Virus record (IMG/VR): IMGVR_UViG_3300043539_000496
Location: 3,601 to 67,600 of that record
Direction: 5' to 3' (one strand)
Source of the DNA: a virus
Length of the DNA: 64,000 bases
Shown in pieces: positions 12,791 through 49,735 of this stretch; the stretch's first letter is position 1; each line of letters starts with the position of its first letter. The notes beneath the pieces are model-generated. The model made no database searches. It saw only the letters and a program-made list of their open reading frames with translations, and had not been told where the DNA came from. The translations under genes and the position numbers were made by a program.

Positions 12791-15700
12791 TTACAGTATA
12801 AAAGGGTTAATATAAATATATCCTGAAGGATTTACATTACCACCTTTCTTTTTAGTTCTTGTTTGACTTCCATACATTCCCATTCCAATATTTGCATTAG
12901 CTCCTGTGCTAGCAGTAGAACCTGCAGCAGCTGCTTTCTTAGCTTCTATACATGATTTTATAATTGCACTGTCTGCATTTGGATTAGCTTGAGTACATTC
13001 ATTTTTTGCTTTCTGCCAGTCAAATCCAGTACCACCACTACCTTGTCCTGTAAACTTTCTATTACCTGGTTGATAGAACATTCTACCACCTACTCCAGGA
13101 GAAACAGCATAGTTAGGATACATTTGGTTTAATGCATCTGTCTGCCATCTATTAGTAATAGCATTGGTATAATAGTTTCTTAAGTTGTTTCTCATTGCTA
13201 ATTTAGAATTATCAAACTGTTGGTTAGCAATAGTATTCTGATCATATAATTTTTGAGCAGATGCTTGTTTCAACATTGATTCTTGGTTAGCTATGTCAGT
13301 ACCTTTAAGTTCAAATTGATTTGCTATGTTAACATTAGCATTGTTGTACTTAGAAAGTATATCTGCAGCATTCTTAGCAGCTTGACCTTGTACACTAGAT
13401 GATCTTGCAGACAATGCTTGAGGTCCTGCAAACTGTGCCATACCTTGGGTTTGGATGTTTGCTTGTTCTGCATTAGCAGCAAGTTCTCTAGTAGGATCTA
13501 AGAATGTAGGTCTTGGTTGTTGTAGTTCAACTCCCGGTGCCCACGGCATATATTTCTTAATACCCATTAAGTCTCCAAATGCACCTGTAGTTTTAATAGT
13601 ATCTTGTAACCACCATTCAGCAGGAGGTCCTGGTACATCTACATCTACCTCAGTTTCACAAGGAGGACAGTTACCATTTGCATCTGGTGTTAAAGGAATT
13701 TTATTACCTTGAGTATCAAAACATGGACAAGGATCTTCTTCTGGTTTTGGACAAAGTGCAGGATCACATTTTCCTTGTGGATCTGCTGCACCATAGTTAG
13801 GACCTTTAGGATCAGTACATTGACATATTGTTTTAGGATCATCAAAAGTCATAGTTCTAATCCCAACACCTGGTACATGACCTATTGTTGAATTACCATG
13901 AGATGGTCTAGTTAGATCTCCAAAGTCATCAACTGGAGATATTCTAATTCCTTTGTTACTGGTATATATAGCAGACATTGATGATTCATCATCAACACCT
14001 CTTTGAAGATTACCGTATAAATTTCTTAATGCATATTGTGTATCAGGATCAAGTTTATCATAATCTTCAATAGTTCTTGCATAACCATGAAATGTTGCTT
14101 GTTGTAGTGCTCTTGTACTAGCATCATTTTCAAGTGGTTCTCCAATACCAGCAGATAGTTGTGTTACTGATAATTTTGGATCTGTAGCATCATCAACACC
14201 ACCATAAGTTTTTGCAAGATATCTTTTTGCTGCAAGAAAATCTGCTTCAGTTTTTATAGGTTGACCTGTTCCAGGATTTTTAATTACAATACCTTTATCT
14301 AGTGCAGCTTTGACACCACTCCAACTTCTAAATTCTCTTCCCCCATCACTAAATAATTCAGGATTAATTCCACGTCCTTGAATTTTAAGATTTCTTTCTT
14401 CATGCTGTAAAAATTGTTTTAATACTGTTGCTTTATCTGGTAAAGCATACCCTCTTTCTTCCCAAGTTGAACCTTGAACACCATGTTTATTTACATAAGA
14501 TCTTGTATCTTTTAATGCTTCTATTGTTTTATTATATATAGCATCTGCAACTTTTTCATCTTTTAAGTTTTGTTCTAATAAATAATATTGTGCAGCTGCA
14601 AATTTAGCATCATCACTATTAGAACCACCCCAATCATTTAAATCCATACCACCGGTGTCACTAGGTGCTACAGGATCAAATCCTTTAAGAGTTCTTGACT
14701 GACCTGATGCATCTATTACAGTAATAGGATCTGTAGTTTTATTTATTTGTTTATTTCTATATGCAGTATACACAGCTCTTTCATAATCTGCATCAGAAGC
14801 GTAGTCAGATCTTTTTATTATTATACCATTATTTGCTTTAGGTAGTGGAAACATTGGTCCTGATCCAGGAATAGGTTTTGGTCTACCTTGATAATTCTGA
14901 GACATACCAGATCCCATAGCCATACCATACTCTGCTTCAGGAATATCTTCTTCATCATAGTCTGGTTCATCATAAAACGGCATATCATAACCACCCATAG
15001 ACATACCATACATAGCCATAGGAGCTTGTTGTTGCATCTGTTGTTGCATCATCATGTCCTCTTCAGACATTTGTGGTTCTTCTTGACCACCTTCTAACTC
15101 TTGTATAGTTTGTTGTATAAGACCAACTGCTTCTTCTTGTGAAGCACCTAACTGCATAAATACTTCTACTATAGCTTCAGGAGGAAGTTGATTTTCTAAA
15201 AGACTTGCAACTATTTCTTGAGGATCTACACCTTGTTCTAGTGCAGCACTAACTTCTTGAACAATTTGCATCATGTCATCACCACCTTCTTCTTGTGGTT
15301 GCTCCATCATTTGTTGTTCCATACCTTCTTCTGCTCTTCTCAATCTCCTCATACCACCACCATACATCATCATTTCTTCTGGAGATGGTTGCTGCATTTG
15401 TTGTTCTTCAGGTTGTGCAACAGGTTGACCTTGATTCATTTGTTCTGCTGCAGCAATTTGATCTTCTGATTGCATTGTTTCTTCAGAACTCTTTTGTTGA
15501 GCATACTTAGACTCTAGTTGTTCTGTAAGTTGTTTAATCTCTTGTTTAGGTAATACTTGTTCATCAGTAATACCTTTTGCTTGCATACAAGGTCTAGCAA
15601 CAGCAGGAATACCTTGAGGGAATCCTTTCTTTGCTTCTTGTGCAAGTGCAAGACATCCAAGTTTAACAACAAACTTTTTAATCATTAACTCAGCTGTTGT

Positions 15701-16171
15701 TCTATCTAATTTATCTGAGTTAGGATCTTCTAGAATTTTTCTATATTTCTGTATGTCATATTGTTTAGCAAGTTCTGCAGGAGTATATGCTTTACTAGTT
15801 CCTGCTTTACCAAACATTTCAAGTATCTCAGGATCTTTAATTCTCATACCTCTAGTATCACTAAAGATAAAAGTATCATCAGGAAGATTTAAAGGTACAC
15901 CACCTGCATGGTGTCTTGGTCCTTTAATAATTTTGTGTTCTGGAAATCCATCACCATTGATATCACCATATACTGTTTCACCTCCTTCTGCCTCTAGATT
16001 TGCTTCTTCTCTAGGGACAGCGGTGATATATTTACTTTCCTTAAGTTTTGGTGCACCAATATATGCATTATAATCCCTACCTCCCATTGCAGGTACATCA
16101 TTAACTAATGCTCCTTGAACTTGATATCCAGTTCTTGCTGTTGGTAATTTTTTTATTTTAACTTTTATCAT
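12791..16171 (-). CDS. Putative virion cargo protein (1126 aa), modular
   Basis: N-terminal ANLEAEGGETV...GPRHHAGGV...FIFSD motif resembling phage ejection/cargo proteins; Q/M/E-rich linker; Cys-Pro cluster; A/N/Q-rich helical C-terminus. Confidence 0.6.
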   Translation of the reverse strand: MIKVKIKKLPTARTGYQVQGALVNDVPAMGGRDYNAYIGAPKLKESKYITAVPREEANLEAEGGETVYGDINGDGFPEHKIIKGPRHHAGGVPLNLPDDTFIFSDTRGMRIKDPEILEMFGKAGTSKAYTPAELAKQYDIQKYRKILEDPNSDKLDRTTAELMIKKFVVKLGCLALAQEAKKGFPQGIPAVARPCMQAKGITDEQVLPKQEIKQLTEQLESKYAQQKSSEETMQSEDQIAAAEQMNQGQPVAQPEEQQMQQPSPEEMMMYGGGMRRLRRAEEGMEQQMMEQPQEEGGDDMMQIVQEVSAALEQGVDPQEIVASLLENQLPPEAIVEVFMQLGASQEEAVGLIQQTIQELEGGQEEPQMSEEDMMMQQQMQQQAPMAMYGMSMGGYDMPFYDEPDYDEEDIPEAEYGMAMGSGMSQNYQGRPKPIPGSGPMFPLPKANNGIIIKRSDYASDADYERAVYTAYRNKQINKTTDPITVIDASGQSRTLKGFDPVAPSDTGGMDLNDWGGSNSDDAKFAAAQYYLLEQNLKDEKVADAIYNKTIEALKDTRSYVNKHGVQGSTWEERGYALPDKATVLKQFLQHEERNLKIQGRGINPELFSDGGREFRSWSGVKAALDKGIVIKNPGTGQPIKTEADFLAAKRYLAKTYGGVDDATDPKLSVTQLSAGIGEPLENDASTRALQQATFHGYARTIEDYDKLDPDTQYALRNLYGNLQRGVDDESSMSAIYTSNKGIRISPVDDFGDLTRPSHGNSTIGHVPGVGIRTMTFDDPKTICQCTDPKGPNYGAADPQGKCDPALCPKPEEDPCPCFDTQGNKIPLTPDANGNCPPCETEVDVDVPGPPAEWWLQDTIKTTGAFGDLMGIKKYMPWAPGVELQQPRPTFLDPTRELAANAEQANIQTQGMAQFAGPQALSARSSSVQGQAAKNAADILSKYNNANVNIANQFELKGTDIANQESMLKQASAQKLYDQNTIANQQFDNSKLAMRNNLRNYYTNAITNRWQTDALNQMYPNYAVSPGVGGRMFYQPGNRKFTGQGSGGTGFDWQKAKNECTQANPNADSAIIKSCIEAKKAAAAGSTASTGANANIGMGMYGSQTRTKKKGGNVNPSGYIYINPFIL

Positions 16172-16181
16172 TTTAGATATA

Positions 16182-16931
16182 TTAAATATAATCTACTTCT
16201 CCTCCTGCTTTTAAAAATGCTTCTAATTCTGGAATTGACATTGTAACTTCATCTCCTATGTTATAACTATTTACACCACCATCTTGTAAAAATCCTCCAA
16301 GTTGTGCACTGTTACCACCAAAGTCACCATAAGTAGAATAACTATTTCTATCAGATCCCATCTCATCAAAATTCTGTAATCCTGCTTTATGACCAAAGTC
16401 TGTCCATGCACCTCTATATTTATTATATTGAGTAGCAACAAAGTTTGCAGGATTAACAGTATTTAAAATCATTGCTTTTTCTCTCCCTCTATTTTGAAAA
16501 TTAGTTATTGCTCCTAACACACCTTTAGTAGCAGCATTAAATTTGTTTACCCCTTTTTCAAAATTTGTGTTTCTCATTTTTCTACTTTCAACAGCTACTA
16601 AATTAGATATTTTATTAGGTGCCTTTTCTTGTTCTAATAATTTAGGTTTTAAAGTAGGCATTTTATCTGGTGTATCTAAATTAAAAGGTACAATAGAACT
16701 AGAAGGTGCTGTATTACTATTGTAATCCATTATATTACGTACATGTTTATTGTAAGGATTTACAGAATTACTTTGAATATTATCAGGTACACCATTTTTA
16801 TCTGCATCATAAGGATCATTGATATTTCCTAAGTTCATATCAAAATTAAAATTTCCATCAGGAAAGTCCCATGAACCAGAATCATTAGCTCCACCAGGTA
16901 AAAATCTTCTTAATTGTTTTTTACTATACAT
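16182..16931 (-). CDS. Hypothetical virion-associated protein (249 aa)
   Basis: Tightly packed ORF; carries the LRRFLPGG tag and a C-terminal module related to those of neighbouring genes. Confidence 0.6.
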   Translation of the reverse strand: MYSKKQLRRFLPGGANDSGSWDFPDGNFNFDMNLGNINDPYDADKNGVPDNIQSNSVNPYNKHVRNIMDYNSNTAPSSSIVPFNLDTPDKMPTLKPKLLEQEKAPNKISNLVAVESRKMRNTNFEKGVNKFNAATKGVLGAITNFQNRGREKAMILNTVNPANFVATQYNKYRGAWTDFGHKAGLQNFDEMGSDRNSYSTYGDFGGNSAQLGGFLQDGGVNSYNIGDEVTMSIPELEAFLKAGGEVDYI

Positions 16932-16932
16932 A

Positions 16933-19900
16933 CTATTTCTTTTTAGTAAATGGTTTAATTATTTTTTTACCTAAACTTTTATAATAATCTATTGGTGCTC
17001 CAAATGCTTGATCAAATCCTTGATTCAATCTATACTTCATTGCAGCTGAACTAAATTTAACTTCTTTAGGTCCTGACTTCTTTTTTTCTTTTCTTTCTTG
17101 TTTTTTGTCAGAATCATTAGATTTATTTTCTGAAGTTGACTTACGACCTCTTCTACCACCATAGTAAGAATCAATTATTGTTTGTAGTTCTTCTTTTCCA
17201 TAAGATTTATTTGGATCATAAATTCTCAATGTAGGTGAAAACCAATTCTTTTTAAATTTAGCAACAGGTTTTCCTAAAGCAGTCAAATCTCCCATGTAAG
17301 GCATACCTGTATTTAAACCATAGGCTCTCAAGACTCTTTCATCCATAGATCTACCATTCCATAATCCTAATGTATTTAATAATCCTGGAGCCGATCTTAC
17401 CAGTCTTGGATTATATCTTATACTTGCAACAGGAACACATCTATTTAATTGTGCATTCCATATTGTACCAGGACCACATTCATTAGTTGTATTAGTATTA
17501 AGATTAAGATTTTGATTTGGATCATCTTGGGGTATGTCACGAGATTCTAAATACTGATTGTATAATTTAAATCTATTTACATCATTTGCTGATATTAAAA
17601 AATCTTGTATCCAATCATTATAATCTTGCTCTTCTTGTGGATCAGAACTAAATTGATGCATCATTTGCTGATCTTCTGGAAGACGTGGATCATAAGGAGT
17701 TGGATCATTAGTTTCATATGCTCCTGGCCAATTATCTGGACTTGTGTAGTCATCTAACCACTCTTCATAATTCATATATGGTACTTGTGGTTTATATTTT
17801 TCATTTAATTTTTTTATGTCTTCCGGAGTAAAAAAACCATATTTTGGAAAATTACCATTTTTTGCTTCAGGTAATGGATTATTTGATTCATAATAATCTT
17901 CATCACCACCATAAATAAATCTTGTAAGTGGATTTTCTACATCCATATTTACATAACCACCCATTTCACCAAACTGAGGTTGTTGCATCATTTGATTATC
18001 TTGAGGTTGTTCTTGTTTATTATCACCTATAAAGATATTCATAAGCTGAGGATCACCAGATTCTTGAACAAGTTTATACAAATCTTCTGTAGCTCTTTTA
18101 TCAGATTGCTGTTTAAGAGTACTGATAAAATTACTATATCTTTTAGAAACTTGACCATCATCCATCCTACTACCTTTTCCTAATGAAGTATCTTGTGCTT
18201 CTCCACCAGGTTCAAACATTTGTTGGACTCTTTTAATAAACTTCTTTTTATGAGCCCCACCATGTTTTTGTCCAGGTAAATCTCCAAACATACGACCATA
18301 ACCTTTATCATGTATAGTATCTCCACTAGGAGAAACATACATAGAGTCATCATATTTATTTTCTCTCCTTAAAGGAATATCAATCCCAAAACCTAATGTA
18401 TCAAATGATCTACCTGCTCCAAATTTATTCCATGTAGTATCTGCAGATGGTGTACGATTTTGAATCATACTTTTATCTCTCATAACATTATCTCCTGGAT
18501 CTTGATATAAATTATATCCTATAAGACCAGCACCTGTTAAAAATCCTGCTGTTCCTAAAAAGTTTCTACCAGTACGGAAGTTACGATCTTTAAGTAATTG
18601 ATAGTCTGCATACTGTGCACCAAATGGTTGATCTCCAAATGTCATTCCTCCTGGTACTTGTTCAGGTCCTATTTCTCTTTGTCTTCCTAAGAAATCTGCA
18701 GTAACCTTATCAGCATTAGGATAAAATTTACTTCTTGCTGCAAATCCAGGATATATAAAAGGATAGAAAGGAGTCATTAAAGACCCCCTACCTAAAGTAT
18801 TCCAATAGATTCTAGCTAAAGACATAGGATCTTTCTTTAACGGTTCTTCAGAAATTACAGTAGGATACTTTTCTAATTTTAAATTAGGGTACTTTTTAGT
18901 AAAAGGAAAGGCAAATGGTTGATTATACCAATTTAACTGATTACCAGTATAGTAACTTTTTTTAATTTGTTCTAATGGCATTCCTGTTGATACATCAAGT
19001 ATCTGTTTATTTTGTGGATCTATGTAAAACTCATCTTTTATTACTACAGCATCTTTATCATAACCTTTTAATTTAGTTTTAACATCAGTTACAATAGATG
19101 CTTTTATAAAACCAGAAGCATCTTTTTCTAATTTTATTCTAGTATTATTATCTTTAGTATGTAAACTTAAAAAGTTTAATTCTGGAATTTTAGATGCAGG
19201 TAATGCTAATTCAATAGGTTTTTTACTTTTACCAAAACCATAACTAGTTCCTACATTTAAAATTGCTTCTGATAATTCAGGTCCTATATTAAATGCTAAA
19301 CCAGAGTTATATGTACCATCTGTATTTTTCTTAAGAACTTGAGGTTCATACTCTGGATTCTTAATTAAATTCATTATATCAACAAGAGGCAGAGTGGATG
19401 TAGTAGATGGTGCTACTTTTTCTTTACCTTTTTTTGTCCAAGTTGTAAGATAATTTATTCCTTGACCCAGTGCTTCTACACCTGCACCCATCCATGATCT
19501 ATTACTTAATGGATTTTGTGTATAGTAAGCATTTTGTACTCTCTCTATAAAATTAGGATTTAATACAGATTGTTGTGCTTCTCTAACTACAGTAGGATTA
19601 AGATTCTCTGTTATCTTTGGAGTTGTTGGTTCTGTTTTATTTGTTTCTGTTGTAGTTGCAGCTGCTTTTTTTCTTTTACGTTTTCCTGGTCCTCCAGGTC
19701 CTCCATTTGCATACTGATCAAGTGCACCACCATACATTCCTTGTGACATAGGTAATAAGTCATCAGGAATAGAACCATCTGCTACACCTTGATAATCTTG
19801 TAAATACATATCTAAAGGAGCAAATCTAGATTTATCATATGGTGTAGTTCCAGGAGTTTGTAAGATCATGCTATCTAAATCTTGAGCAAACATTTCTTGA

Positions 19901-20880: not shown

Positions 20881-20898
20881 AATAACATGTTATATATA

Positions 20899-20910
20899 AA
20901 TATACTAAAA
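20899..20910 (-). promoter_or_regulatory. Conserved intergenic WGTATATT element, putative promoter
   Basis: TTTTAGTATATT on the minus strand upstream of ATG 20880; the same core occurs in five other intergenic gaps. Confidence 0.5.
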
Positions 20911-20938
20911 TTTAATTTAATCAATAAACTTATAAAGT

Positions 20939-23900: not shown

Positions 23901-25177
23901 TTTATTTGTTTTTCTGTATCTGTGTAATATTTATTTGTGTCACTTTTGTATTGAGATAATATATTAGCTTCATTTTTATCACCAGCTCTATTACCAAAAC
24001 CATAACCATAGTAAGTTGTATTTTTACCATTTACATTTATATTTCCTTGAGCATCTGTTTTAACTTTTTTAGAATCTACTTTTTCCCAATTAAAAGGATT
24101 AATATATTCTTTACCACTTTCTTTATCTTTACTAAATGGACTTTCAGATTCTTTTGTTTCAGTTCCTTTAATTAAACTAAAATCATCATTGGCATATTCA
24201 TTAGTATACTTGTATACATTTCCATACTTATCTTTCTTATACAATACACCACTGTAATCTACAAAATAATTATCAGCATTATTTTGAAAATCAAGATCAT
24301 TGGCAATTCCAGTAAATTGAGTAACACCTTGTTTTGAATTATAACCTGTTTTAACTAATTGTCTTTTAGCATCTTCAGCTGAATAACCTTGCTTAGTTAA
24401 ATTATTAATCATTTCAGCACCTTGTTTAATATGAAATTTATCAAGGGCTCCTAAGTAATCTCCAAATTCTGTTTGAAGTTGTTGAGCATTTAGTCCATGA
24501 TGTTTTTCAAATTCACCAGGTTTCATACCTGCCTGAGACATCATGTGTGCTATTCCTTCTTTAGGGTAAAGATTAAATTCATAATTACCATCACCCAAGT
24601 CTTTCTTTTCTACATAGTAATTTGCTCTATCAGGATCTTCAGTATTGTTATACCAAGCTTCAAAATTTGGATTAGATTCTACTTGTTCTTTAGATAAACT
24701 ATAATATGGTTTAAGAGTTTCTTTTTTATATTTATTACCTTTGTCTACAGCTTTTTGTATACCAGATATATAAGATTGATATTTATCTTTATCTTCTTGT
24801 TCTCTTCTGTTTTTGTTATATATATAATCACCTAACATCTTTGAAGCAAGTTCAGGATTTTCAAATGTACTATATGATTTATTTAATTTTGCTAATCTTC
24901 TATCAAAATTCTTTTGTGTCATTTCTGTATTTCTAGCTTCTAGAATACTAAGAATTTCATCTTCAGTTAAACAATTTCCTTCAAAATTTTCTCTTCCAGG
25001 AGGGCACTCTATACCTTGCACAACATCACTAGACATTTGATTCCAGTAAGAAGGTTGATCAACACCTTGGACTTCTACCATAGGTTGATCTTCATATGTT
25101 TTCTTTTTTCTTTTTGACCTATCAGTCTCTCCTCCTGGTGCATATTGTGGAATGCTTGTTATTCTATACTTTGCCAT
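20939..25177 (-). CDS. Modular putative cargo protein (1412 aa)
   Basis: Long ORF; N-terminal IPQYAPGG; Gly/Ala hydrophobic segments; C-terminal KNGG...EIDKYVQGGYIVEEE module. Confidence 0.6.
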   Translation of the reverse strand: MAKYRITSIPQYAPGGETDRSKRKKKTYEDQPMVEVQGVDQPSYWNQMSSDVVQGIECPPGRENFEGNCLTEDEILSILEARNTEMTQKNFDRRLAKLNKSYSTFENPELASKMLGDYIYNKNRREQEDKDKYQSYISGIQKAVDKGNKYKKETLKPYYSLSKEQVESNPNFEAWYNNTEDPDRANYYVEKKDLGDGNYEFNLYPKEGIAHMMSQAGMKPGEFEKHHGLNAQQLQTEFGDYLGALDKFHIKQGAEMINNLTKQGYSAEDAKRQLVKTGYNSKQGVTQFTGIANDLDFQNNADNYFVDYSGVLYKKDKYGNVYKYTNEYANDDFSLIKGTETKESESPFSKDKESGKEYINPFNWEKVDSKKVKTDAQGNINVNGKNTTYYGYGFGNRAGDKNEANILSQYKSDTNKYYTDTEKQIKDSEVDQQQERYTEMNNMLYDAVYNNTGTKIAPITPVYGVHNDYANEFNKAAQQINSIEGNSQDDVAKRAKILNDFFTKAKTFNSSYIAKVPKEYNADGSVKSYHDKKLDVSQLGNYGDKASVVYLDYKGTRNAEAYKNSGDLKKAMGDARNNAAEELLRYAYTNKINPGSESLNYKGYDGSKYTGEEEYETLPFDVWKQTPEAQEFIANYNKDPKYGEKIYDVEKNRAEKKWQDYQDENSLWKKPTLSNFLEKAGQQISSLANQPVYTLNQWASGNAADPMIGLMPDAPTSRNIGAWEANLGPGGSRLFLDRYNNLNSDFGTQIANLFNPAHFASNVGIGLRNLYEGDPEQEVGDVLLNTAFSVLPVSKVLRAASATKLLPGVKTLSKVGARGLAKNALYNATRNLVTPGAGLTGLFVKDAFMPTGEIDPYTGREIQGFGVEAGQNIWNEIQKAKEKAHISSSLPSSSSLDFLAHLDSDKVKENLFGLGMAGMIGLHGGKTALGFGKDLLRGAPNYLPAGTRLLNDKYNFEMDPALFNQQYFNRSGLNATGLNPKEPLRLRKEGGDLPQAKMGWPPGSFRLRRKTPTVFGRDVYRPSSTIFNTGIKAGNVFTPTERISTYGNVKREYPINFEGIPYDKNKLGEAIYNVDPLDYGNAANWQQQGILDFLDYQTKETKTNFPELEKNVNNVKGSDISIDLNKLGDFRFQDFSDGWEARRFMMNAFDGPQKTLSKSDFWTDADLNKSVELGKQFDEHQNEFMDFLSVDDVPGFIKKYPHLAEIFTDEFKFPKGKFYSNQAQRKLINDTLGFGYTMIDPLGTGALSALAKGKPFPKTVGEYYSSFKASVLGEPDIKFDSLFPSAQKFNAFDKDWLRRQNPFTYIESLRGLPWADDIINKSISNTLSRTVYGLSRVEAQALQDALIEKRHQMFKQDLMKDINKGKPFKGRDAWNQITSQPGWKNKNGGIAMKLTKKEIDKYVQGGYIVEEE

Positions 25178-28100
25178 TATTTTATTTTTTCAAATGTATA
25201 ACCTAATTTTTTTAGTTTTTCCATAGTAGCTTTATTTATCTCATCACCTAGTTGGTAATCAGGTGTACCACCATATTGAGCTTGTTGAGGTGCATACTCA
25301 TCTATTGATCTTGATTCATTCTTTGCCATCTTATTAAGAAGCATTTTTAAATCTTGAGGACTATTTATAAATCTTTGAAAATCAATTAAAGCAGGAACAA
25401 ATGCATCTGAATTAGGATCAGTCCATCCTTTAGTTTTAGCTTTCTGATAAAAGTTTTTTAGATCATCATCTGTAATTTCTTGATCTGGTTTAAATCCAGC
25501 AAGTCTTCTTAATTCCATAATTCTCTTACTGATCTCCTCACCATAATTACCTGAGATGTAATCATAAAACTTTCCTTCTTCTTTTGATACTTTATTTTTA
25601 GGAACTAATGCTTGATTAACTAAACCTGTTTCATACTCTCTTAGTTTGTGTACAGGATGATTTTTCATTTTTTTATATGTATCCATTTCAGGATCTAGCA
25701 TAGAAGGAGACGTAAGGTAATGACCTTTTTCATGAAACAAAACTTCATCTCTAATAAAAGGAGACGTTATCTGTGAAGAATTTAAAGATATTTTTCCTGT
25801 CATAGGATTATACATACCTGAAGAATCACCTAATCCTTTAGTATCATAATCTATTTCAGGAAACTTTTCTGTTCTTTTTAATAGTTTCGGTCTTGCTTCA
25901 TTTAATAATTTTTGACCTTCTACATCTTGTATAACTCTATTAGTATACCAGTTCTTATACCATTCTTCAGCAGGTGTTTGTTCTGCAGATACATCTAAAA
26001 CACACTCACCGGTAGCAGTACTTCTAATATATCCTTCTGGACATGGTTCACCACCTTCAGCATATTGATTATCTTCTAAATTACTTTCTGCACTAAATGG
26101 ATTACCTAATAAAGCAGCTGTACCAGCACCTATTACATATGGAGCAAATGATGGAAGTTCATTCATTGTGTTAGACAATAAACCAAAGTTCTTAGGTTTA
26201 TTTGTCATTATATCAAAAATTCTAAGTGGAAACTTATCTTCTTTTTTTAAGTAATCCTTATAGTAATCTTTTATCATTTTAGAATTTACTTTTTGATAAG
26301 GATGTTTTATAATATTGTCTTGTAACATATTTTCTCTTAACTCAGCTAAAAAAGGACTTCTTTCAAAACCTCCATTAAGATTATAATAAGATATAGCCTT
26401 TTGTAAATAATTACCATCTTTATTTAAATGTTTATAAAAAATATTATTATTAGATGCATTAGACAAATCAAAATCTAATTGATTTTTTAAATCTAAACCA
26501 CCAAGTTTTTCATCTATTGATGTACGTCCTACTCCACGTTTAACACCTGGTAAATGAATTATCTCATGCATACCTACACTAGGTAATTCTTCATTAGTAA
26601 AAAATTTAGGATTTATAACAAAAGCATTTTGATTTCTATCATAGAAAGCACCACCTTGTGTATTAGAATCTTCTAATAATTTAGCATAAGTTTCTTCAGC
26701 TGTTTTGAGTTGATTATCTAAAGTTACTGAAGTATTAAAATAATCATTGTCACTTATTAAATTTTGCTCATGATATGAATCAATTTTATTTTGTTCAGCT
26801 ATTATATCATTTATAGTTTTTGTATAAGTAATAGCCTCTTGATTTAGATTTCTTGTATTTGCTAAATCAGAAACCATATCTTTTGAATCAAAAAATAAAT
26901 TAGCTTTTAAAGCAGGAGTAGTATTAATTAAATTTTGTAATCTTCTTTGACCTTCAGCTGAATTCCATAAATTAACAGTTCTATCTTGTACTGCCTTTAT
27001 AGTTTGAGCTGCTGACAAATTTGTTGCACGATCTTTTGAATTACCAATTGTTATTTTATTTATTCTATGTTCAGGTTCAGGTAGTTTACGAGACTTACGT
27101 AATCCTTTAGGGGGCCAACCTCCTGGTGCATAACTATCCAATTGTCCACCATATTTATCACTAACTAAAGTTGATTCTTGTCTTAGTTTTTCATCATAAG
27201 CTTTTCTCTGCATTAATTCTTCAAGTTGTGTATTGTATTCTTCTTTAGCAACTCTATTTCTTTCACGTAATTTAGGAAGTTCATTTTTAACATAGTTCTT
27301 CCAATCTTTTTTATATTCTCTTCTTGCCCTGTAATCATCCCAACTTGCAATTGGTACACCTCTAAAACTTGGAAATTTTACATTTTCTGCATTCTCTAAA
27401 TCTTGGTGCATCTTACTAGTTGCATCAATATATCTTTCATTCCAACCTTTACGTGATTTATACAATTCAGGAGTTCCCTTTTCTCTATCATACCCAGTTA
27501 TAAATCTTAGTAAAGGATCTTCTTTTTTATTTACAATTTTTGAAGATTTTCTTATTAAAGGTTGTGTATCATATCTTTGATTTAAAAATAACTTATATGT
27601 ATTCTTTCTTTTTGGATGTGATTTACCTTCTGGAAATTCATATCTAGAAATACCCAATCCCTCTAACTCTAATTCAGGTGTTTCATATGTAGGTATTTTT
27701 CTATCAAGAGACGGATCAGCATATGTATATTGTTTTTCAAAATCAATATTTTGTGCATCTTCATAACCATCAGCATCCTTTTTAAAAATTACATCAGGAT
27801 ATTCTTTAGTTACTAAAGATAAATTCATATTTTCTCTAACATAGTCATCTCCAATATCATAAGTTGAACCATGATAAAGTGAACATTCAGGACATGGTTT
27901 AGCTTCTATGTTACCTTTTTTTCTTTTCTTTTGATAATCATTAAATAATTGATTCTTGATATTATCTGGTATATATTCAGGATCTTCATATAATTTTTTA
28001 AAGGCATTAATTTCTTTACTCATCCTTTTAGTAAAGTCACTATTTGGATCTTGGTCTGCTATATCACCAGAAAAAGTTGAAAACTTATATTCAGAATCTG

Positions 28101-30153
28101 GATTATAAGTTTGTGTCTCTCCAATCTTAGTTTTTAAACCAGCTTTTTGTATTTTATCAAGATTTTCTTTTTCTTCTTGTTTAAGTATTTGCCATTGTCT
28201 GTACTTTTCATACTGATGTGAATCTTTAGAATTTACATAGTATGTATTACTAGACTTGTCATAACCTTCTTTTTTATTAGGATCAACTTCAACTTTATAA
28301 TTAAGATCAGGATAAAAAGGTACAGATGTTAAATACTCATTATTATCAGAATATATAGTGTATGATCCTGCTGGTTGAATATAGATATCACCATACTCAT
28401 CATCAAATTCAGTACGTGTGAGGTTTAAATCTTGTGGCCAGTCCGTATACTTTCTTTCAAGTTTACTTCTATCAATTACTTTTTTATTTTCATCAAGTAC
28501 ACCTGGTATAACTTTATAACCAATAGATTTGCATTTTCCTGTCTCAGGATCTTTTACATAACCATCAGGACATTTATCACCATATCCTTCACACCATCCA
28601 GTTTCTGGATTATATGTATATCCATCAGGACATCTAGGTTCTCCATTTTCATCCATCATTGGTTTTACAGCACCACCTGGTGCATACTGATTTAATTCAG
28701 GTACAGAAATATCATCTTCTACTATATAACCACCGTCAACATATTTTTGTATTTCATCTTCTGTAAGATTAATACTTATACCTCCATTTTTATTTTGGCT
28801 ACCAAAGGTTGTAGTTTTTACGTTATTATTAGAAGGTATAAATGGATCATTTTTAATTTTTTCATTAATTTCTTTCTGTGCTTTTTTTTGTTTGTATTGA
28901 TTTAGTGGAAACTTCATCCCTGCATTAGCAGAAAAACTTCCAGGCAGCATTAGACTTTGGTTATAGTTTACATTACCATAGAAATAACCAGGAAAATTCT
29001 TAGGCATAAATTTAGGTAAACCTTCTACACCTGCATTTAGATTAAAACCAAAATGTGGTCTTGTACCTATACCAGCTGTTACACTAGGGTTTACATTCCA
29101 TTTATAACTACCCGGTCTATAATTTTTTGAGTGATATTTATCACCTCCATAAAACTCAAGACCACCTTTTAATCCTAAACCAATATTGTTACTTGGATCC
29201 CAATCTAATTTTATTTCTCCTTCACCAGCTGCTTTGTAACCATGAGGTTGTTTAAATTTATCATAACGGTAATTAGCTGATAAACCTCCTACAACAGGAC
29301 TTTTTTCTACAGCTTTTCCAAAACCTTTTAAAAATTTACCAACACTTTCTTTAGGTTTTTCTTTTTCAGGATCCCATTTATCTGGACCTTCCCTATATGC
29401 TGAACCAGTCATCTCACCTGCATTGTACATAGCAAGATCATCATAATATCTTTCCCAGGCTCCCTCATATTGATCCTTACCCATTTTTTGTATTGCCTGT
29501 CCTGCAGCTTGACCCAAAGATGAATCATAAGGTTTTCCTAAATAACCTTTTAATGCCCAACCACTATCTTTGTTTTTTGATATATCTCTAGTCAATCCTG
29601 TAGTAAAGTTTACCCCATAAGAAGGATTTGACATTCCTATAGCTTTTGTGCCTTCTCCCAACAAACTTTTTCCAGAGGTAAAATCAGTAAGATTTTGTTT
29701 CATACCTATAGGATAAGCCTGTTCATTTGTCATATAAGGACTTATTCCTACTTCAGTATTCTGAATAGCTTTAACCATTCCTTTTGGCATCCATTTTGGA
29801 AGTATTCTTTTAGAATCACCATAATTTTTTTTCTTTGATCCTGGTGGCTCATCAGAATATCCTCCTGGTGCATATTGTATTAAACCACCTTCAGCATAAT
29901 ATTGAGCTCTTGGATCAAAGATTTTATTCTTTTTAGATTTAGGTTTCTTAAATAGAGGATGTTGTGCAAACAACCTATTTGTTGCTTCAAAACTTCTTGA
30001 GTATGATTTAGGACTTTTACCTTTTGGTAGACTAGGTCTTTTATTAGATCCACCCCTCTTAAAATTATTATCTAAGCCATTATTAGTATTAGTAGAATTC
30101 TTAGTTTTACTAAGATTTCTAACAGCGTCAATAAGTACTTTTTTATTATACAT
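25177..30153 (-). CDS. Modular putative cargo protein (1658 aa) with two zincin-like HExxH domains
   Basis: HEIIH and HEKGH, each followed by an E...ELR segment; CPxGY..C repeats; three YAPGG and two YAEGG tags. Confidence 0.65.
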   Translation of the reverse strand: MYNKKVLIDAVRNLSKTKNSTNTNNGLDNNFKRGGSNKRPSLPKGKSPKSYSRSFEATNRLFAQHPLFKKPKSKKNKIFDPRAQYYAEGGLIQYAPGGYSDEPPGSKKKNYGDSKRILPKWMPKGMVKAIQNTEVGISPYMTNEQAYPIGMKQNLTDFTSGKSLLGEGTKAIGMSNPSYGVNFTTGLTRDISKNKDSGWALKGYLGKPYDSSLGQAAGQAIQKMGKDQYEGAWERYYDDLAMYNAGEMTGSAYREGPDKWDPEKEKPKESVGKFLKGFGKAVEKSPVVGGLSANYRYDKFKQPHGYKAAGEGEIKLDWDPSNNIGLGLKGGLEFYGGDKYHSKNYRPGSYKWNVNPSVTAGIGTRPHFGFNLNAGVEGLPKFMPKNFPGYFYGNVNYNQSLMLPGSFSANAGMKFPLNQYKQKKAQKEINEKIKNDPFIPSNNNVKTTTFGSQNKNGGISINLTEDEIQKYVDGGYIVEDDISVPELNQYAPGGAVKPMMDENGEPRCPDGYTYNPETGWCEGYGDKCPDGYVKDPETGKCKSIGYKVIPGVLDENKKVIDRSKLERKYTDWPQDLNLTRTEFDDEYGDIYIQPAGSYTIYSDNNEYLTSVPFYPDLNYKVEVDPNKKEGYDKSSNTYYVNSKDSHQYEKYRQWQILKQEEKENLDKIQKAGLKTKIGETQTYNPDSEYKFSTFSGDIADQDPNSDFTKRMSKEINAFKKLYEDPEYIPDNIKNQLFNDYQKKRKKGNIEAKPCPECSLYHGSTYDIGDDYVRENMNLSLVTKEYPDVIFKKDADGYEDAQNIDFEKQYTYADPSLDRKIPTYETPELELEGLGISRYEFPEGKSHPKRKNTYKLFLNQRYDTQPLIRKSSKIVNKKEDPLLRFITGYDREKGTPELYKSRKGWNERYIDATSKMHQDLENAENVKFPSFRGVPIASWDDYRARREYKKDWKNYVKNELPKLRERNRVAKEEYNTQLEELMQRKAYDEKLRQESTLVSDKYGGQLDSYAPGGWPPKGLRKSRKLPEPEHRINKITIGNSKDRATNLSAAQTIKAVQDRTVNLWNSAEGQRRLQNLINTTPALKANLFFDSKDMVSDLANTRNLNQEAITYTKTINDIIAEQNKIDSYHEQNLISDNDYFNTSVTLDNQLKTAEETYAKLLEDSNTQGGAFYDRNQNAFVINPKFFTNEELPSVGMHEIIHLPGVKRGVGRTSIDEKLGGLDLKNQLDFDLSNASNNNIFYKHLNKDGNYLQKAISYYNLNGGFERSPFLAELRENMLQDNIIKHPYQKVNSKMIKDYYKDYLKKEDKFPLRIFDIMTNKPKNFGLLSNTMNELPSFAPYVIGAGTAALLGNPFSAESNLEDNQYAEGGEPCPEGYIRSTATGECVLDVSAEQTPAEEWYKNWYTNRVIQDVEGQKLLNEARPKLLKRTEKFPEIDYDTKGLGDSSGMYNPMTGKISLNSSQITSPFIRDEVLFHEKGHYLTSPSMLDPEMDTYKKMKNHPVHKLREYETGLVNQALVPKNKVSKEEGKFYDYISGNYGEEISKRIMELRRLAGFKPDQEITDDDLKNFYQKAKTKGWTDPNSDAFVPALIDFQRFINSPQDLKMLLNKMAKNESRSIDEYAPQQAQYGGTPDYQLGDEINKATMEKLKKLGYTFEKIK

Positions 30154-36781: not shown

Positions 36782-37449
36782 TATCTTAATGCATTTTGAC
36801 CATCATCAGGCCCATCAGTTGGAACCTGCATAGCCATGGTTAATTCTTTTATAACAAACTGCTCTATTTCAGAAAATAAATATTCTGGAAAAGGTAATGG
36901 ATCATTCTGTCTAATAAGACAAGGATCTGTATTACAATTATACTCTGCAGTACTTCCTTCAAATACAGCTTCAATTCTTATTGCTTCCCAGTCTATATTG
37001 GGACAATATAAGTAACCGTTAAGATACCAGAAGTAAGGTCTCTTATTATATTTAAATGTTGTTGACTTAGTTATAGAAACCCAAGTACCAGGATCTGTTC
37101 TGAACATTTCTATTGATCCATCTATAGAAGATACAGTACGAATAATAGGACCCATTGCTCCATCAAAAATTGTAGGTAGTTTATCTTTTGTTCTTTTAAA
37201 ATAACATCCTGAATATACACCAATACATCCTGCTTCAACTCTATCAACATCAATAAGTTCAACATAAGAAAGAACATTGAAGATAGAACTTATCTTCATT
37301 AATCTAAATTGATTATCTTCTCTCTTTAAAAGAGTTTGCCCATACTTTGTTATTGCAGAATATATAACTCTGTCAGTAAGAAAAGGATCTTCCTTTACAG
37401 CTTTTAATGTATTTCTTACTCGTGATACGGCATCTCCAATTGTTGTCAT
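36781..37449 (-). CDS. Tail ring/adaptor structural protein
   Basis: Gene order; YFWYLNGYLY...IEAVFE...PFPEYL pattern. Confidence 0.55.
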   Translation of the reverse strand: MTTIGDAVSRVRNTLKAVKEDPFLTDRVIYSAITKYGQTLLKREDNQFRLMKISSIFNVLSYVELIDVDRVEAGCIGVYSGCYFKRTKDKLPTIFDGAMGPIIRTVSSIDGSIEMFRTDPGTWVSITKSTTFKYNKRPYFWYLNGYLYCPNIDWEAIRIEAVFEGSTAEYNCNTDPCLIRQNDPLPFPEYLFSEIEQFVIKELTMAMQVPTDGPDDGQNALR

Positions 37450-49584: not shown

Positions 49585-49586
49585 GA

Positions 49587-49733: not shown

Positions 49734-49735
49734 GA

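What the first reader, a model, noticed from the sequence alone, without database searches (positions are those of the whole stretch)
12791..30153. A repeated GG tag punctuates five adjacent cargo-block proteins: polyprotein cleavage site or packaging signal
Seen: IPQYAPGG, LIQYAPGG, LNQYAPGG, LDSYAPGG, LDQYANGG, YYAEGG, NQYAEGG, LRRFLPGG, QMFEPGG, LTRFIYGG. Short forms include KYGG, QYGG, MYGG, KNGG, KHGG, KEGG and KKGG. A variant L-x-x-A-x-x-G also recurs (LPKANNG, LPEAKNG, LPQAKMG, LRRAEEG, LKRAQQG, LVKANMG). Tags fall at boundaries between unrelated-looking modules, often as a short/long pair (KYGG-QLDSYAPGG; MYGG-ALDQYANGG). Two copies share 18 identical nt (starting 25131 and 29861). Established: adenovirus and ASFV proteases cut virion precursors after GG, and T4 internal proteins use a short capsid-targeting peptide. 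Inference: these genes are cassette polyproteins whose payloads are tagged for head loading or release, and the tag may also serve as a recombination joint.
Basis: partly seen in the sequence, partly recalled or inferred. Interest (0 to 1): 0.8.

Follow-up and report, generated by a model that had tools for sequence, protein, structure and literature searches.

The report
Seam peptides in crAss-like phage cargo
Five large proteins that this uncultured crAss-like phage probably carries in its particle and injects are strings of swappable modules that begin, end and join at the same short glycine-ending peptides, which look more like loading or docking handles than protease cut sites.

Summary
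YA[PNE]GG occurs 7 times in the five proteins after the muzzle gene, against 0.03 expected, and never in 29 other ORFs. The companion motif L-x-x-A-x-x-G is equally specific. Related phages carry the same peptides. In 160 related loci, L[PT][KQR]A[QKRN].G occurs 160 times in cargo-block ORFs and 0 times elsewhere.

The peptides mark module edges. Homology to relatives breaks off within 5 residues of a GG at 261 of 653 endpoints, against 76 expected. A metallopeptidase-like cassette of protein E is preceded by GG in 28 of 28 well-aligned distant proteins. AlphaFold puts the tags in low-confidence linkers flush with confident domains.

Internal joints look like a chain-end cap fused to the next chain's basic start peptide.

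Cleavage is unsupported. I found no GG-type or prohead protease in the window or in 5 near-complete relatives. The one comparable joint in the solved crAss001 particle is built uncut.

Loading or docking is my preferred reading, but it is untested.

This scan noted the same pattern on at least 16 other DNAs. My literature searches found no description of it.

The parts
30153..35723 (-). Muzzle protein gene (gp44-like), the upstream anchor of the cargo block; not itself tagged
   Evidence: Pfam PF25731 crAss_MUZ, E 4.1e-29. Its C-terminal part is 64-83% identical in the 80 loci kept, out of 383 IMG/VR matches.
25177..30153 (-). Cargo protein E (1658 aa), a string of cassettes
   Evidence: ORF. 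Homology to relatives is mosaic, with steps at residues ~33, 91, 451, 492 and 1361-1374, each within 7 residues of a GG.
29860..29904 (-). E residues 84-98, a double tag (YYAEGG then LIQYAPGG)
   Evidence: Coverage by relatives falls from 52 to 6 loci here. In locus L013 the same first tag is followed directly by the cassette that lies at E 1369 onward.
28672..28791 (-). E residues 455-494, a full internal junction tag (cap-like mini-module followed by a leader-like piece ending QYAPGG)
   Evidence: Aligned with 22 tags from relatives; Y21, G24, G25 and E29 are invariant. Similar to the C-terminus of D, 45% identity over 65 aa, E 3e-8.
27118..27156 (-). E residues 1000-1012, a short/long tag pair (KYGG, then LDSYAPGG)
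   Evidence: Followed by a basic stretch and then cassette 1.
26071..27117 (-). E residues 1013-1361, cassette 1 with an HExxH motif and a hydrophobic Gly/Ala-rich end
   Evidence: HEIIH seen. Weak Pfam DUF6782 hit, E 0.0036, below the cut-off. Found at many different positions in large proteins of the 1.84-billion-protein library. In 57 of 75 matches a GG follows within about 40 residues.
26050..26070 (-). E residues 1362-1368, tag NQYAEGG between the two HExxH cassettes
   Evidence: pLDDT is below 50 at model residues 1-26, and the confident domain starts right after the tag.
25279..26049 (-). E residues 1369-1625, cassette 2, a zincin-like HExxH module
   Evidence: HEKGH. The AlphaFold domain is confident at model residues 30-272. 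Only weak Foldseek resemblance to small zincins, IrrE/PprI, SPRTN and ArdC (best E 0.16, probability 0.84). Preceded by GG in 28 of 28 distant proteins whose alignment reaches the boundary, and followed by GG in 28 of 29.
25180..25278 (-). E residues 1626-1658, QYGG plus the C-terminal cap mini-module
   Evidence: aligned with the same cap at the ends of 10 or more library proteins. The linker at model residues 275-296 has pLDDT below 50; helix at 302-310.
20939..25177 (-). Cargo protein D (1412 aa)
   Evidence: ORF. Relatives share only residues ~1-250 and ~980-1412.
25130..25177 (-). D residues 1-16, a basic N-terminal leader ending QYAPGG
   Evidence: The same leader family starts cargo genes in at least 12 relatives.
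22181..22216 (-). D residues 988-999, tag pair (KEGG then LPQAKMG)
   Evidence: Homology to relatives resumes at ~981.
20942..21025 (-). D residues 1385-1412, C-terminal cap ending GGYIVEEE
   Evidence: An identical type of ORF end is seen in L009, L012, L092 and L156.
16933..20880 (-). Cargo protein C (1315 aa). Its N-terminal ~200 aa are paralogous to part of A.
   Evidence: BLASTP A 204-365 against C 79-284, 33% identity, E 4e-27.
20776..20880 (-). C residues 1-35, basic leader with FLYGG then LVKANMG
19690..19740 (-). C residues 381-397, tag pair (MYGG, LDQYANGG, then PGG) followed by a Lys/Arg run
   Evidence: Coverage by relatives falls from 12 to 3 loci at ~386.
17854..18270 (-). C residues 871-1009, a widely shared short cassette bounded by KHGG / MFEPGG and by FIYGG / LPEAKNG
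   Evidence: Coverage by relatives rises from 6 to 35 loci at ~867 and falls at ~968-1005.
16182..16931 (-). Cargo protein B (249 aa), with leader LRRFLPGG (residues 7-14) and a C-terminal cap ending GGEVDYI
   Evidence: The cap family is seen in many relatives.
12791..16171 (-). Cargo protein A (1126 aa), the best candidate for the C1 (gp45) counterpart
   Evidence: It is the last gene before the conserved 1049-aa gene. Its N-terminal region is conserved in more than 100 loci.
16079..16171 (-). A residues 1-31, basic leader ending PAMGG
   Evidence: pLDDT 47-56.
15539..16042 (-). A residues 44-211, a confidently folded domain resembling the portal-bound domain of crAss001 gp45
   Evidence: pLDDT about 90-96. 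VIA-align match to 7qog_M residues 425-552: Z 4.8, rmsd 5.4, 99 aligned, 22% identity. This is a weak match.
15323..15370 (-). A residues 268-283, tag pair (MYGGG then LRRAEEG) in a disordered Q/E/M-rich linker
   Evidence: pLDDT below 50. Coverage by relatives falls from 69 to 30 loci at ~267.
15089..15283 (-). A residues 297-361, a four-helix mini-domain bounded on both sides by GG
   Evidence: pLDDT about 95 for 297-361, with GG at 296-297 and 361-362. Only generic helical matches, Z 6.3 or less.
14825..14845 (-). A residues 443-449, LPKANNG, immediately before the next confident domain
   Evidence: pLDDT rises from 60 (residues 441-450) to about 90 from residue 451.
12794..12853 (-). A residues 1107-1126, the second type of C-terminal end (KKGG, then an aromatic/Pro tail)
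   Evidence: The same end type closes many A-type proteins of relatives and some library proteins.

Best explanation
The five genes are an expanded, mosaic version of the single cargo gene (C1/gp45) that crAss001 has between its muzzle gene and its C2/RNA-polymerase genes.

Each polypeptide is built from three kinds of piece:
- a basic N-terminal leader that ends in x-x-G-G or L-P-K-A-x-x-G;
- one or more exchangeable cassettes, here two HExxH zincin-like modules, small helical domains and a portal-binding-like domain;
- an acidic C-terminal cap, a roughly 25-residue strand-helix-strand mini-module containing G-G or G-Y.

An internal junction tag is a cap fused in frame to the next leader. Split and fused gene arrangements are therefore interchangeable.

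I propose that these peptides stay uncut and act as cargo-specific handles. They would mark a chain for incorporation into the particle. They would also hold the largely unfolded chain at repeating sites inside the portal and tail barrel, with the glycines giving the bend between handle and payload. The seams then appear as recombination joints simply because any cassette flanked by intact handles is still loaded.

Shown here: the motif, its specificity, its position at domain edges and chain ends, and its conservation at protein level but not DNA level.

Inferred: presence in the virion, binding to virion parts, and absence of cleavage.
For: 1. Context. Pfam finds the major capsid protein, ring proteins 1 and 2 and the muzzle in crassvirus order, so the block sits where crAss001 has gp45 (PMC10172136 passages).

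2. Specificity in the window.
- YA[PNE]GG: 7 in the five proteins against 0.03 expected, and 0 in the 29 other ORFs.
- L[PKRV][KQER]A..G: 6 in the five proteins against 0.10 expected, and 0 in the other ORFs.

3. Specificity in 160 related loci.
- L[PT][KQR]A[QKRN].G: 160 in 381,679 aa of cargo-block ORFs against 0 in 572,385 aa of other ORFs.
- [YF][AVLI].GG: 335 against 106.

4. The tags are kept at free chain ends, which a passive linker would not need.
- A GG lies in the last 34 residues of 213 of 233 distinct cargo C-termini, against 60 of 466 others.
- A GG lies within the first 40 residues of 129 of 242 cargo N-termini, against 17 of 460 others.
- The first 15 residues of cargo N-termini carry a mean charge of +3.47, against +0.03 for others. 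The last 15 residues carry -1.21, against +0.34.

5. Junction equals cap plus leader. Of 26 distinct full junction tags, 5 end the ORF 2-3 residues after GGY-x-x-E-E. The next genes start with the leader that follows in the fused forms.

6. Module edges.
- Homology to relatives breaks off within 5 aa of a GG at 261 of 653 endpoints. The circular-shift null mean is 75.6, and 0 of 1000 shifts reached the observed count.
- E cassette 2 is preceded by GG in 28 of 28 library proteins aligned to the boundary (32 of 40 of all rows) and followed by GG in 28 of 29.
- The AlphaFold models place the tags in pLDDT<50 linkers flush with confident domains: A 45-205, A 297-361, A 451 onward, and E 1369-1611.

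7. Selection acts on the peptide and not on the DNA. The median longest shared exact run is 11 nt in tag DNA, against 17-20 nt in the ring-2 gene of the same phages.

8. Precedent for docking. [quoted passage not shown]
- gp45 carries related peptides just before residue 214, at 423-428 and just after 552.
- Residues 425-428 (A-F-G-G) are part of the built chain, so that joint is uncut.

9. No candidate protease.
- Pfam found none in the window ORFs.
- 0 of 5 near-complete relatives match C39, S78, C5, C48 or S77.
- Any HExxH motif occurs in the cargo ORFs of only 45 of 151 loci, while tags occur in 136 of 151.
Against: - No binding has been shown.
- Virion presence of these five proteins is inferred from synteny and from one weak fold match (Z 4.8).
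- Neither BLASTP of A against gp45 nor a profile of A against PDB sequences links A to gp45.
- hhalign of the junction tag against gp45 is insignificant (probability 0.24).
- The uncut joint in crAss001 is a single site of the short F-G-G form in a distant phage. Other sites could still be cut.
- Trimming at GG near both chain ends is exactly the layout of adenovirus precursor proteins (from my own knowledge), so the end-tag pattern fits cleavage equally well.
- The protease searches cover known families only. Two of them (C5, S77) had no positive control.
- Counts across relatives are inflated by shared ancestry.
- ORFs were taken stop-to-stop on one strand, and the cargo class of loci anchored only on the downstream gene may include a few non-cargo ORFs.
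Confidence: 0.45

Rival explanations
1. The tags are protease cleavage sites. The chains would be polyprotein precursors cut after G-G (and perhaps after A-x-x-G), in the procapsid or after injection. Cutting would release the cassettes and trim a short leader and cap from every chain, as adenain does with adenovirus core and cement precursors.
For: - The motif ends in G-G with a conserved aromatic or aliphatic residue 4-5 positions before it, and sits in exposed linkers at domain edges.
- It lies near both ends of nearly every chain, so cutting would remove short peptides.
- Split and fused forms are interchangeable.
- E carries two HExxH modules.
- Self-processing by embedded zincin-like peptidases is the published expectation for polyvalent proteins (PMC5512222 passages). 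The phi14:2 preprint calls fused RNA-polymerase polyproteins 'likely cleaved'.
- Three small Lys-rich proteins next to the capsid gene also carry K-x-G-G. This recalls adenovirus core proteins (my own knowledge).
Against: - No C39, C5, C48, S78 or S77 peptidase in 5 near-complete relatives, and none by Pfam in the window.
- HExxH motifs occur in the cargo ORFs of only 45 of 151 loci, while tags are near-universal. E's own cassettes are found in at most 7 related loci.
- The gp45 joint at residues 425-428 is built as a continuous chain in 7QOG.
- crAss001 virion gels show bands near 150, 270 and above 300 kDa, close to the full sizes of gp49, gp47 and gp50. The text I could read does not say which band is gp45.
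- One of the two GGs of the cap is replaceable by L-G-Y in homologous caps, so it looks like a structural turn.
Confidence: 0.25
2. The tags are passive hinges. They would be flexible, easily unfolded spacers between independently folding cassettes, with no specific partner. They would be conserved because they descend from one ancestral linker that spreads along with the cassettes.
For: - Low pLDDT at all tags.
- Glycine-rich tags set in Q/E/M/P-rich linkers.
- Cargo must pass a narrow channel partly unfolded (PMC10172136).
Against: - A spacer needs no conserved aromatic, Leu-Pro-Lys-Ala or charged pattern. These are kept across proteins that share no other similarity and across clusters of the library at 50% identity or less.
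- The peptides are retained at free N- and C-termini, where nothing needs spacing.
- Conservation is at protein level and not DNA level.
- L[PT][KQR]A[QKRN].G is absent from 572,385 aa of other proteins of the same phages.
Confidence: 0.2
3. The tags act in the host after injection. One possibility is an amphipathic helix plus G-G that imitates the double-glycine leaders of Bacteroidota peptides, which host C39-peptidase transporters recognise. Another is a set of membrane- or envelope-targeting signals that sort each cassette.
For: - The 13-residue core (hydrophobic, S/T, x, x, E, hydrophobic, x, x, Y/F, A/V, x, G, G) resembles the double-glycine leader consensus, with one extra residue. That consensus is recalled and comes from no call.
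- The likely hosts are Bacteroidota. This is inferred from the muzzle protein's nearest cultured relatives, Cellulophaga and Flavobacterium phages, at 24-27% identity.
- Some chain ends resemble outer-membrane beta-signals.
Against: - There is no direct evidence.
- Leaders of that kind are N-terminal and single, whereas here they are internal and repeated.
- The resemblance is a short pattern only.
Confidence: 0.07

Closest known systems
Cargo protein C1 (gp45) of Bacteroides phage crAss001 (Bayfield et al. 2023, PMC10172136; PDB 7QOG chain M)
   Same: - Same genome position, after the muzzle gene and before the C2/RNA-polymerase genes.
- Basic N-terminus with a GG at residue 20.
- Peptides of the form aromatic-x-x-G-G flank the two segments seen bound in the virion.
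- Lys-rich C-terminus with GG.
- A weak fold match of A 44-211 to the portal-bound domain.
   Different: - One 842-aa gene there, against five genes totalling 5,760 aa here.
- No significant sequence similarity.
- The strict motifs, the cap mini-module and the L-P-K-A-x-x-G piece are not found in gp45.
- No enzyme cassettes are reported in gp45.
Polyvalent proteins of phages and conjugative elements (Iyer, Burroughs, Anand, de Souza, Aravind 2017, PMC5512222)
   Same: - Very large, mosaic, multi-domain proteins thought to travel with the DNA.
- Zincin-like HExxH modules as frequent components.
- A relative (L017) carries the family-defining ART-PolyVal domain, E 6.6e-13. SET domains occur in 4 of 5 relatives' first cargo genes tested.
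   Different: - The passages I read (the term 'linker' has 0 occurrences in that paper) describe no conserved junction, leader or cap peptide.
- That paper expects release by embedded peptidases, which is not supported here.
Adenovirus protease (adenain) sites in virion precursor proteins; ASFV pS273R polyprotein sites
   Different: - No adenain-like or Ulp1-like peptidase found.
- The residue four before the cut site would often be Ala or Gln instead of Met/Leu/Ile.
- No cleavage is shown.
Capsid-targeting sequence of phage T4 internal proteins
   Same: A short N-terminal peptide shared by otherwise unrelated proteins that are packed into the head and injected (my own knowledge). Compare the shared basic leaders here.
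   Different: - T4's peptide is removed by the prohead protease gp21. No such protease was found here (which had no positive control).
- Here there is also a C-terminal cap and there are internal copies.

Membership tests
Crassvirus cargo protein C1 (gp45-like) | Gene lies directly after the muzzle gene and before the C2 / virion RNA-polymerase genes | tested here: met
   Muzzle at 30153-35723 (PF25731), followed by the five ORFs and then ORFs of 1049 and 2467 aa. The crAss001 gene order is shown. That the 1049-aa protein is the C2 counterpart is judged by eye only.
Crassvirus cargo protein C1 (gp45-like) | Portal-binding domain of the gp45 425-552 type | tested here: inconclusive
   VIA-align: model residues 44-211 against 7qog_M 425-552, Z 4.8, rmsd 5.4, 99 aligned, 22% identity, rank 35. 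Foldseek found nothing at E<=0.001.
Crassvirus cargo protein C1 (gp45-like) | Detectable sequence similarity to gp45 | tested here: not met
   BLASTP best E 1.2. A profile of 67 A-type N-termini against PDB sequences hit only poly-Q stretches. No Pfam family for A-E at E<=0.01 except a sub-threshold DUF6782 hit.
Crassvirus cargo protein C1 (gp45-like) | Protein present inside the virion | not testable with these tools
   The phage is uncultured (an IMG/VR record) and no proteome exists for it.
Polyvalent proteins (Iyer et al. 2017) | Two or more unrelated domains in one polypeptide, with mosaic distribution | tested here: met
   E cassettes 1 and 2 occur separately, at different positions, in proteins of 150-3,200 aa. 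Confident, separate domains in A and E. Mosaic homology.
Polyvalent proteins (Iyer et al. 2017) | Zincin-like metallopeptidase domain | tested here: inconclusive
   Two HExxH motifs in E. Foldseek best hits are small zincins, IrrE/PprI, SPRTN and ArdC, but at E 0.16-0.7. Pfam DUF6782 scores 17 bits against a cut-off of 27.
Polyvalent proteins (Iyer et al. 2017) | Domains of families defined on polyvalent proteins | tested here: inconclusive
   None in the window's five proteins. ART-PolyVal (PF18760, E 6.6e-13) occurs in the first cargo gene of relative L017.
Virion polyprotein system with a GG-specific protease (adenain, Ulp1-like, C39 double-glycine) | A peptidase of such a family encoded by the phage | tested here: not met
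   0 of 5 near-complete relatives for PF03412, PF00770 and PF02902. The PF00770 search had no positive control. No peptidase family by Pfam in 33 window proteins of 34 ORFs listed; the 121-aa plus-strand ORF was also scanned.
Virion polyprotein system with a GG-specific protease (adenain, Ulp1-like, C39 double-glycine) | Chains are cut after G-G | not testable with these tools
   The only indirect datum is that the gp45 joint A-F-G-G (425-428) is part of the built chain in 7QOG.
T4-type capsid-targeting sequence | A short shared N-terminal peptide on unrelated internal proteins | tested here: met
   Shared basic leaders: 138 of 193 distinct cargo N-termini have a net charge of +3 or more in 15 aa, against 37 of 317 others. 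Leader families are listed.
T4-type capsid-targeting sequence | Removal by a gp21-type prohead protease | tested here: inconclusive
   PF03420 matched 0 of 5 relatives, but the search had no positive control. PF04586 matched 0 of 5, with controls ringing.
T4-type capsid-targeting sequence | The peptide is sufficient to load a foreign protein into the head | not testable with these tools
   This needs an experiment.

The most novel reading that the evidence does not exclude
The cap and the leader form a handshake. [quoted passage not shown] The junction peptide would be a general, transferable address label for loading any protein into a crassvirus particle and delivering it into Bacteroidota cells.
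Probability: 0.15. Interest if true: 0.85.

Novelty: new variant of a known kind. Interest (0 to 1): 0.6.

Why it matters
Crassviruses are among the most abundant phages in the gut and in aquatic habitats. How they choose, pack and eject several megadaltons of protein is unknown.

A conserved, cargo-exclusive peptide code that delimits every cassette gives three things:
- a simple rule for annotating cargo genes and their domain boundaries in thousands of uncultured genomes;
- a catalogue of injected effectors, with HExxH peptidase-like, SET, ADP-ribosyltransferase and lysozyme-like cassettes seen here and in relatives;
- a concrete, testable candidate for the loading, docking or processing signal.

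If the signal is transferable, it would be a tool for delivering proteins with phage particles.

The finding is not unique to this window, since the scan has met it repeatedly. Its weight lies in how general it is. It does not lie in this particular locus.

Tried and rejected
- **Co-folding the tag with the rings.** I folded the junction tag (53 aa, alignment of 23) with ring proteins 1 and 2 (alignments of 46 each). The verdict was 'no answer': score 0.00 against a mark of 0.32, and the controls were not run. This counts neither for nor against binding. It used the only job, so the cap-leader pairing could not be tested.
- **Close relatives of E.** None in INPHARED by megablast or tblastn and none in IMG/VR by peptide patterns. 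The cargo proteins diverge much faster than the muzzle.
- **PHROGs.** No family for A-E.
- **Strict motifs in distant cultured relatives.** They are not enriched in phi17:2, Fpv1 or crAss001 outside gp45. Only looser x-x-G-G forms occur there.
- **hhalign of the tag profile against gp45.** Probability 0.24.
- **Foldseek searches.** A 1-470 against the PDB gave nothing at E<=0.001. E 1340-1658 gave only weak zincin-like rows.
- **First alignment for folding E 1001-1658 (A5).** It superposed the two HExxH cassettes and was discarded. Only E 1340-1658 was folded, so cassette 1 has no model.
- **Tag DNA as a recombination signal.** Rejected: the shared exact runs are shorter than in a conserved gene, and the 19-nt repeat is explained by identical residues.
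- **E's HExxH cassettes as the general tag protease.** Rejected as too sporadic.
- **Timed-out script.** timed out and was rerun with 200 shuffles.
- **Literature.** No paper describing these peptides turned up.


Full report
**What the window is**

The window is 64 kb of a 67.6-kb IMG/VR virus record estimated to be 57% complete. It has about 31% G+C, and almost all genes lie on the minus strand.

Pfam identifies the following genes:
- a crassvirus major capsid protein at 52820-54439;
- tail ring proteins 1 and 2 at 35726-37449;
- the muzzle protein at 30153-35723.

In crAss001 the muzzle gene gp44 is followed by cargo protein C1 (gp45), then C2 (gp46), then the RNA-polymerase-associated proteins (PMC10172136 passages).

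Here the muzzle gene is followed by five ORFs, which I call E, D, C, B and A. They have 1658, 1412, 1315, 249 and 1126 aa. ORFs of 1049 and 2467 aa come next. Virion presence is inferred and not shown.

**The observation**

The table gives the counts in the window, against 200 residue shuffles of each protein.

| Motif | Five cargo proteins (5,760 aa) | Shuffle mean | 29 other ORFs (14,613 aa) |
|---|---|---|---|
| YA[PNE]GG | 7 | 0.03 | 0 |
| [YF][AVLI].GG | 12 | 0.84 | 0 |
| L[PKRV][KQER]A..G | 6 | 0.10 | 0 |
| plain GG | 60 | 41.9 | 80 (shuffle mean 63.6) |

Plain GG is barely enriched. These patterns were written after seeing the data, so I tested them on other DNA.

The muzzle C-terminus found 383 IMG/VR relatives, of which 80 loci were kept, at 64-83% identity. 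The N-terminus of the 1049-aa protein gave 98 relatives, of which 80 loci were kept. By contrast, protein E has no close relative at all. The block therefore evolves far faster than its neighbours.

In the 160 related loci:
- L[PT][KQR]A[QKRN].G occurs 160 times in 381,679 aa of cargo-block ORFs and 0 times in 572,385 aa of other ORFs.
- [YF][AVLI].GG occurs 335 times against 106.
- 136 of 151 loci with cargo ORFs carry at least one tag.

Two caveats apply to these counts. They are inflated by common descent. ORFs were taken stop-to-stop, and the cargo class may include a few non-cargo ORFs in loci anchored on one side only.

The 18-nt repeat is a 19-nt exact match starting at 25130 and 29860, encoding the same six residues.

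**Anatomy of the tags**

Listing the instances shows three elements.

1. *An N-terminal leader.* It is strongly basic. The mean net charge of the first 15 residues is +3.47 in 193 distinct cargo N-termini, against +0.03 in 317 others. It ends in x-x-G-G or L-P-K-A-x-x-G. A GG lies within the first 40 residues in 129 of 242 cargo N-termini, against 17 of 460 others. All five window proteins have one, at residues 13-35.

2. *A C-terminal cap.* A GG lies in the last 34 residues of 213 of 233 distinct cargo C-termini, against 60 of 466 others. Most caps are a mini-module of about 25 residues: a short strand, a helix of the form L-[TS]-x-x-E-I-x-x-[YF], a G-G or L-G turn, and a strand ending the chain. 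Proteins D, B and E end this way. A-type proteins end in a second form, K-K-G-G plus an aromatic/Pro tail.

3. *Internal junction tags.* These are a cap followed in frame by a leader-like piece. Of 26 distinct full junction tags, 5 stop 2-3 residues after the cap strand, and the next gene then starts with the leader. Split and fused arrangements therefore differ by little more than a stop and a start codon. I confirm this here.

**Tags sit at module edges**

Three independent lines support this.

(a) *Homology breakpoints.* I ran BLASTP of the five proteins against all ORFs of the 160 loci. Of 653 internal alignment endpoints where the subject protein continues, 261 lie within 5 aa of a GG. 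The circular-shift null gives 75.6 ± 31, and 0 of 1000 shifts reached the observed count. Within 10 aa the count is 364, against a null mean of 138. Protein B is an exception, with 0 of 43 endpoints near a GG.

(b) *Distant proteins.* A full HMMER scan of 1.84 billion representative proteins with E 1001-1658 gave 326 hits at E<=0.001. The two HExxH cassettes occur separately, at many positions, in proteins of about 150 to 3,200 aa.
- Cassette 2 is preceded by x-x-G-G in all 28 rows whose alignment reaches the boundary, and in 32 of 40 rows overall.
- Cassette 2 is followed by Y-G-G or a tag pair in 28 of 29 rows.
- Cassette 1 is followed by a GG within about 40 residues in 57 of 75 rows.
- What precedes the joint varies. 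It can be a junction tag, an N-terminal leader or another tag, so the cassette is plugged in exactly after the G-G.
- One example comes from the related loci, not from this library. In locus L013 the first tag of E is followed directly by cassette 2, whereas in E it is followed by a different cassette.

(c) *Predicted structure.*
- A 1-470 (alignment of 67, mean pLDDT 73) has confident domains at 45-205, 297-361 and from 451. The leader (1-43) and the linkers holding the tags (233-295, 362-450) are below about 55. The 297-361 helical mini-domain is bounded by GG on both sides. The domain starting at 451 follows L-P-K-A-N-N-G directly.
- The GGs at A 63 and A 90 are inside the first domain and are not tags.
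- E 1340-1658 (alignment of 23, mean pLDDT 78) has one confident domain, E 1369-1611. Both flanking tags lie in stretches below pLDDT 50.

**What the cassettes are**

- *E cassette 2.* It has an HExxH motif. It resembles minimal zincins, IrrE/PprI, SPRTN and ArdC only weakly (best E 0.16).
- *E cassette 1.* It has a second HExxH and a sub-threshold DUF6782 hit. It has no model.
- *A 44-211.* It matches the portal-bound domain of crAss001 gp45 weakly: 7qog_M, Z 4.8, 99 residues aligned, 22% identity. Sequence searches do not link the two.
- *Relatives' first cargo genes.* They carry SET domains in 4 of 5 tested, a lysozyme-like stretch, and in L017 the ART-PolyVal ADP-ribosyltransferase domain at E 6.6e-13.

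This repertoire places the block among the 'polyvalent proteins' of Iyer et al. 2017 (PMC5512222, passages read).

**Cut, dock or hinge?**

*Against a pure hinge:*
- The peptides are conserved in sequence across proteins that share nothing else.
- They are kept at free chain ends.
- They are exclusive to cargo.
- They are conserved as protein and not as DNA. The median longest shared exact run is 11 nt in tag DNA, against 17-20 nt in the ring-2 gene.

That last result also argues against the tag acting as a DNA-homology recombination site.

*Against cleavage:*
- Pfam finds no peptidase in the window's ORFs.
- Five relatives that are 96-100% complete have no C39, S78, C5, C48 or S77 peptidase. 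The C5 and S77 searches had no positive control.
- HExxH motifs occur in the cargo ORFs of only 45 of 151 loci.
- In crAss001, gp45 has related peptides at residues 205-210, 258-265, 423-428 and 557-563. These flank the barrel-bound segment 214-245 and the portal-bound domain 425-552. The solved chain runs from 425, that is through A-F-G-G, so that joint is uncut.
- The 2018 gel of crAss001 virions shows bands near the full sizes of the largest cargo proteins. The text does not assign gp45 to a band.

*For cleavage:*
- The layout, with G-G sites near both ends of each chain and at each joint, is what a processed precursor would look like.
- The phi14:2 preprint speculates that fused polymerase polyproteins are cleaved.
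- An unrecognised protease cannot be excluded.

*For docking:*
- crAss001 shows that short cargo segments are held on the portal, on rings 1 and 2 and on the muzzle.
- The end of the barrel-bound gp45 segment (Q-R-L-T-S-L-P) resembles the start of the D-type leader (K-Y-R-I-T-S-I-P). This is by eye and not significant.

My one co-folding job gave no verdict and is reported only under Tried and rejected.

**Verdict**

Cleavage is not supported, and loading or docking is plausible but untested.

My odds are:

| Reading | Odds |
|---|---|
| Uncut cargo handles | 0.45 |
| Cleavage sites | 0.25 |
| Passive hinges | 0.20 |
| Signals that act in the host | 0.07 |

The same pattern was already noted by this scan on at least 16 other DNAs. 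Six literature searches and the passages read show no published description of the peptides.

What this report adds:
- the reading of the junction as a cap plus a leader, with end statistics and charge asymmetry;
- the library-wide test of cassette boundaries;
- the result that conservation is at protein level and not DNA level;
- the protease-family searches in complete relatives.

Noticed in passing
window 49102-50379, minus strand (three ORFs: 49102-49584, 49736-50074, 50071-50379): Three small (102-160 aa), Gly- and Lys-rich proteins lie between the capsid region and the tail genes. They carry several K-x-G-G peptides and end in Lys runs after a GG. Pfam finds nothing. They may be internal, DNA-associated proteins using the same code.
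   Followed up: partly
window 47783-48397, minus strand: A ferritin-like protein (PF00210, E 1.6e-24) is encoded inside the structural gene block. This is an unusual place for such a gene.
   Followed up: no
window about 28900-29850, minus strand (E residues ~100-420): The cassette between the first tags and the junction tag of E is rich in Gly, Tyr and Asn, with alternating patterns that look like beta-barrel strands. It has almost no relatives among the 160 loci. Not tested here.
   Followed up: no
L006, L017, L018, L032 (first gene after the muzzle); L017 residues 1226-1376: Relatives carry SET-domain cassettes (E 2.6e-9 to 7e-7) and, in L017, an ART-PolyVal ADP-ribosyltransferase cassette (E 6.6e-13) in the first cargo gene. 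The window's own E has neither.
   Followed up: partly
window 12791-16171 and 16933-20880 (A 204-365, C 79-284): A and C share a paralogous stretch of about 200 residues (33% identity, E 4e-27). It includes the GG-bounded four-helix mini-domain and Q/E/M-rich linkers. The mini-domain has only generic helical fold matches.
   Followed up: partly
window 50392-50736, minus strand: A small protein with DUF6321 (E 6.4e-21), next to the Gly/Lys-rich proteins.
   Followed up: no
window 9585-12734, minus strand: The N-terminus of the 1049-aa protein after the block resembles, by eye, the N-terminus of crAss001 gp46 (C2). It has no tags and is 36-56% identical in the 80 related loci kept. It is thus less diverged than the five tagged proteins: E has no close relative at all.
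   Followed up: no
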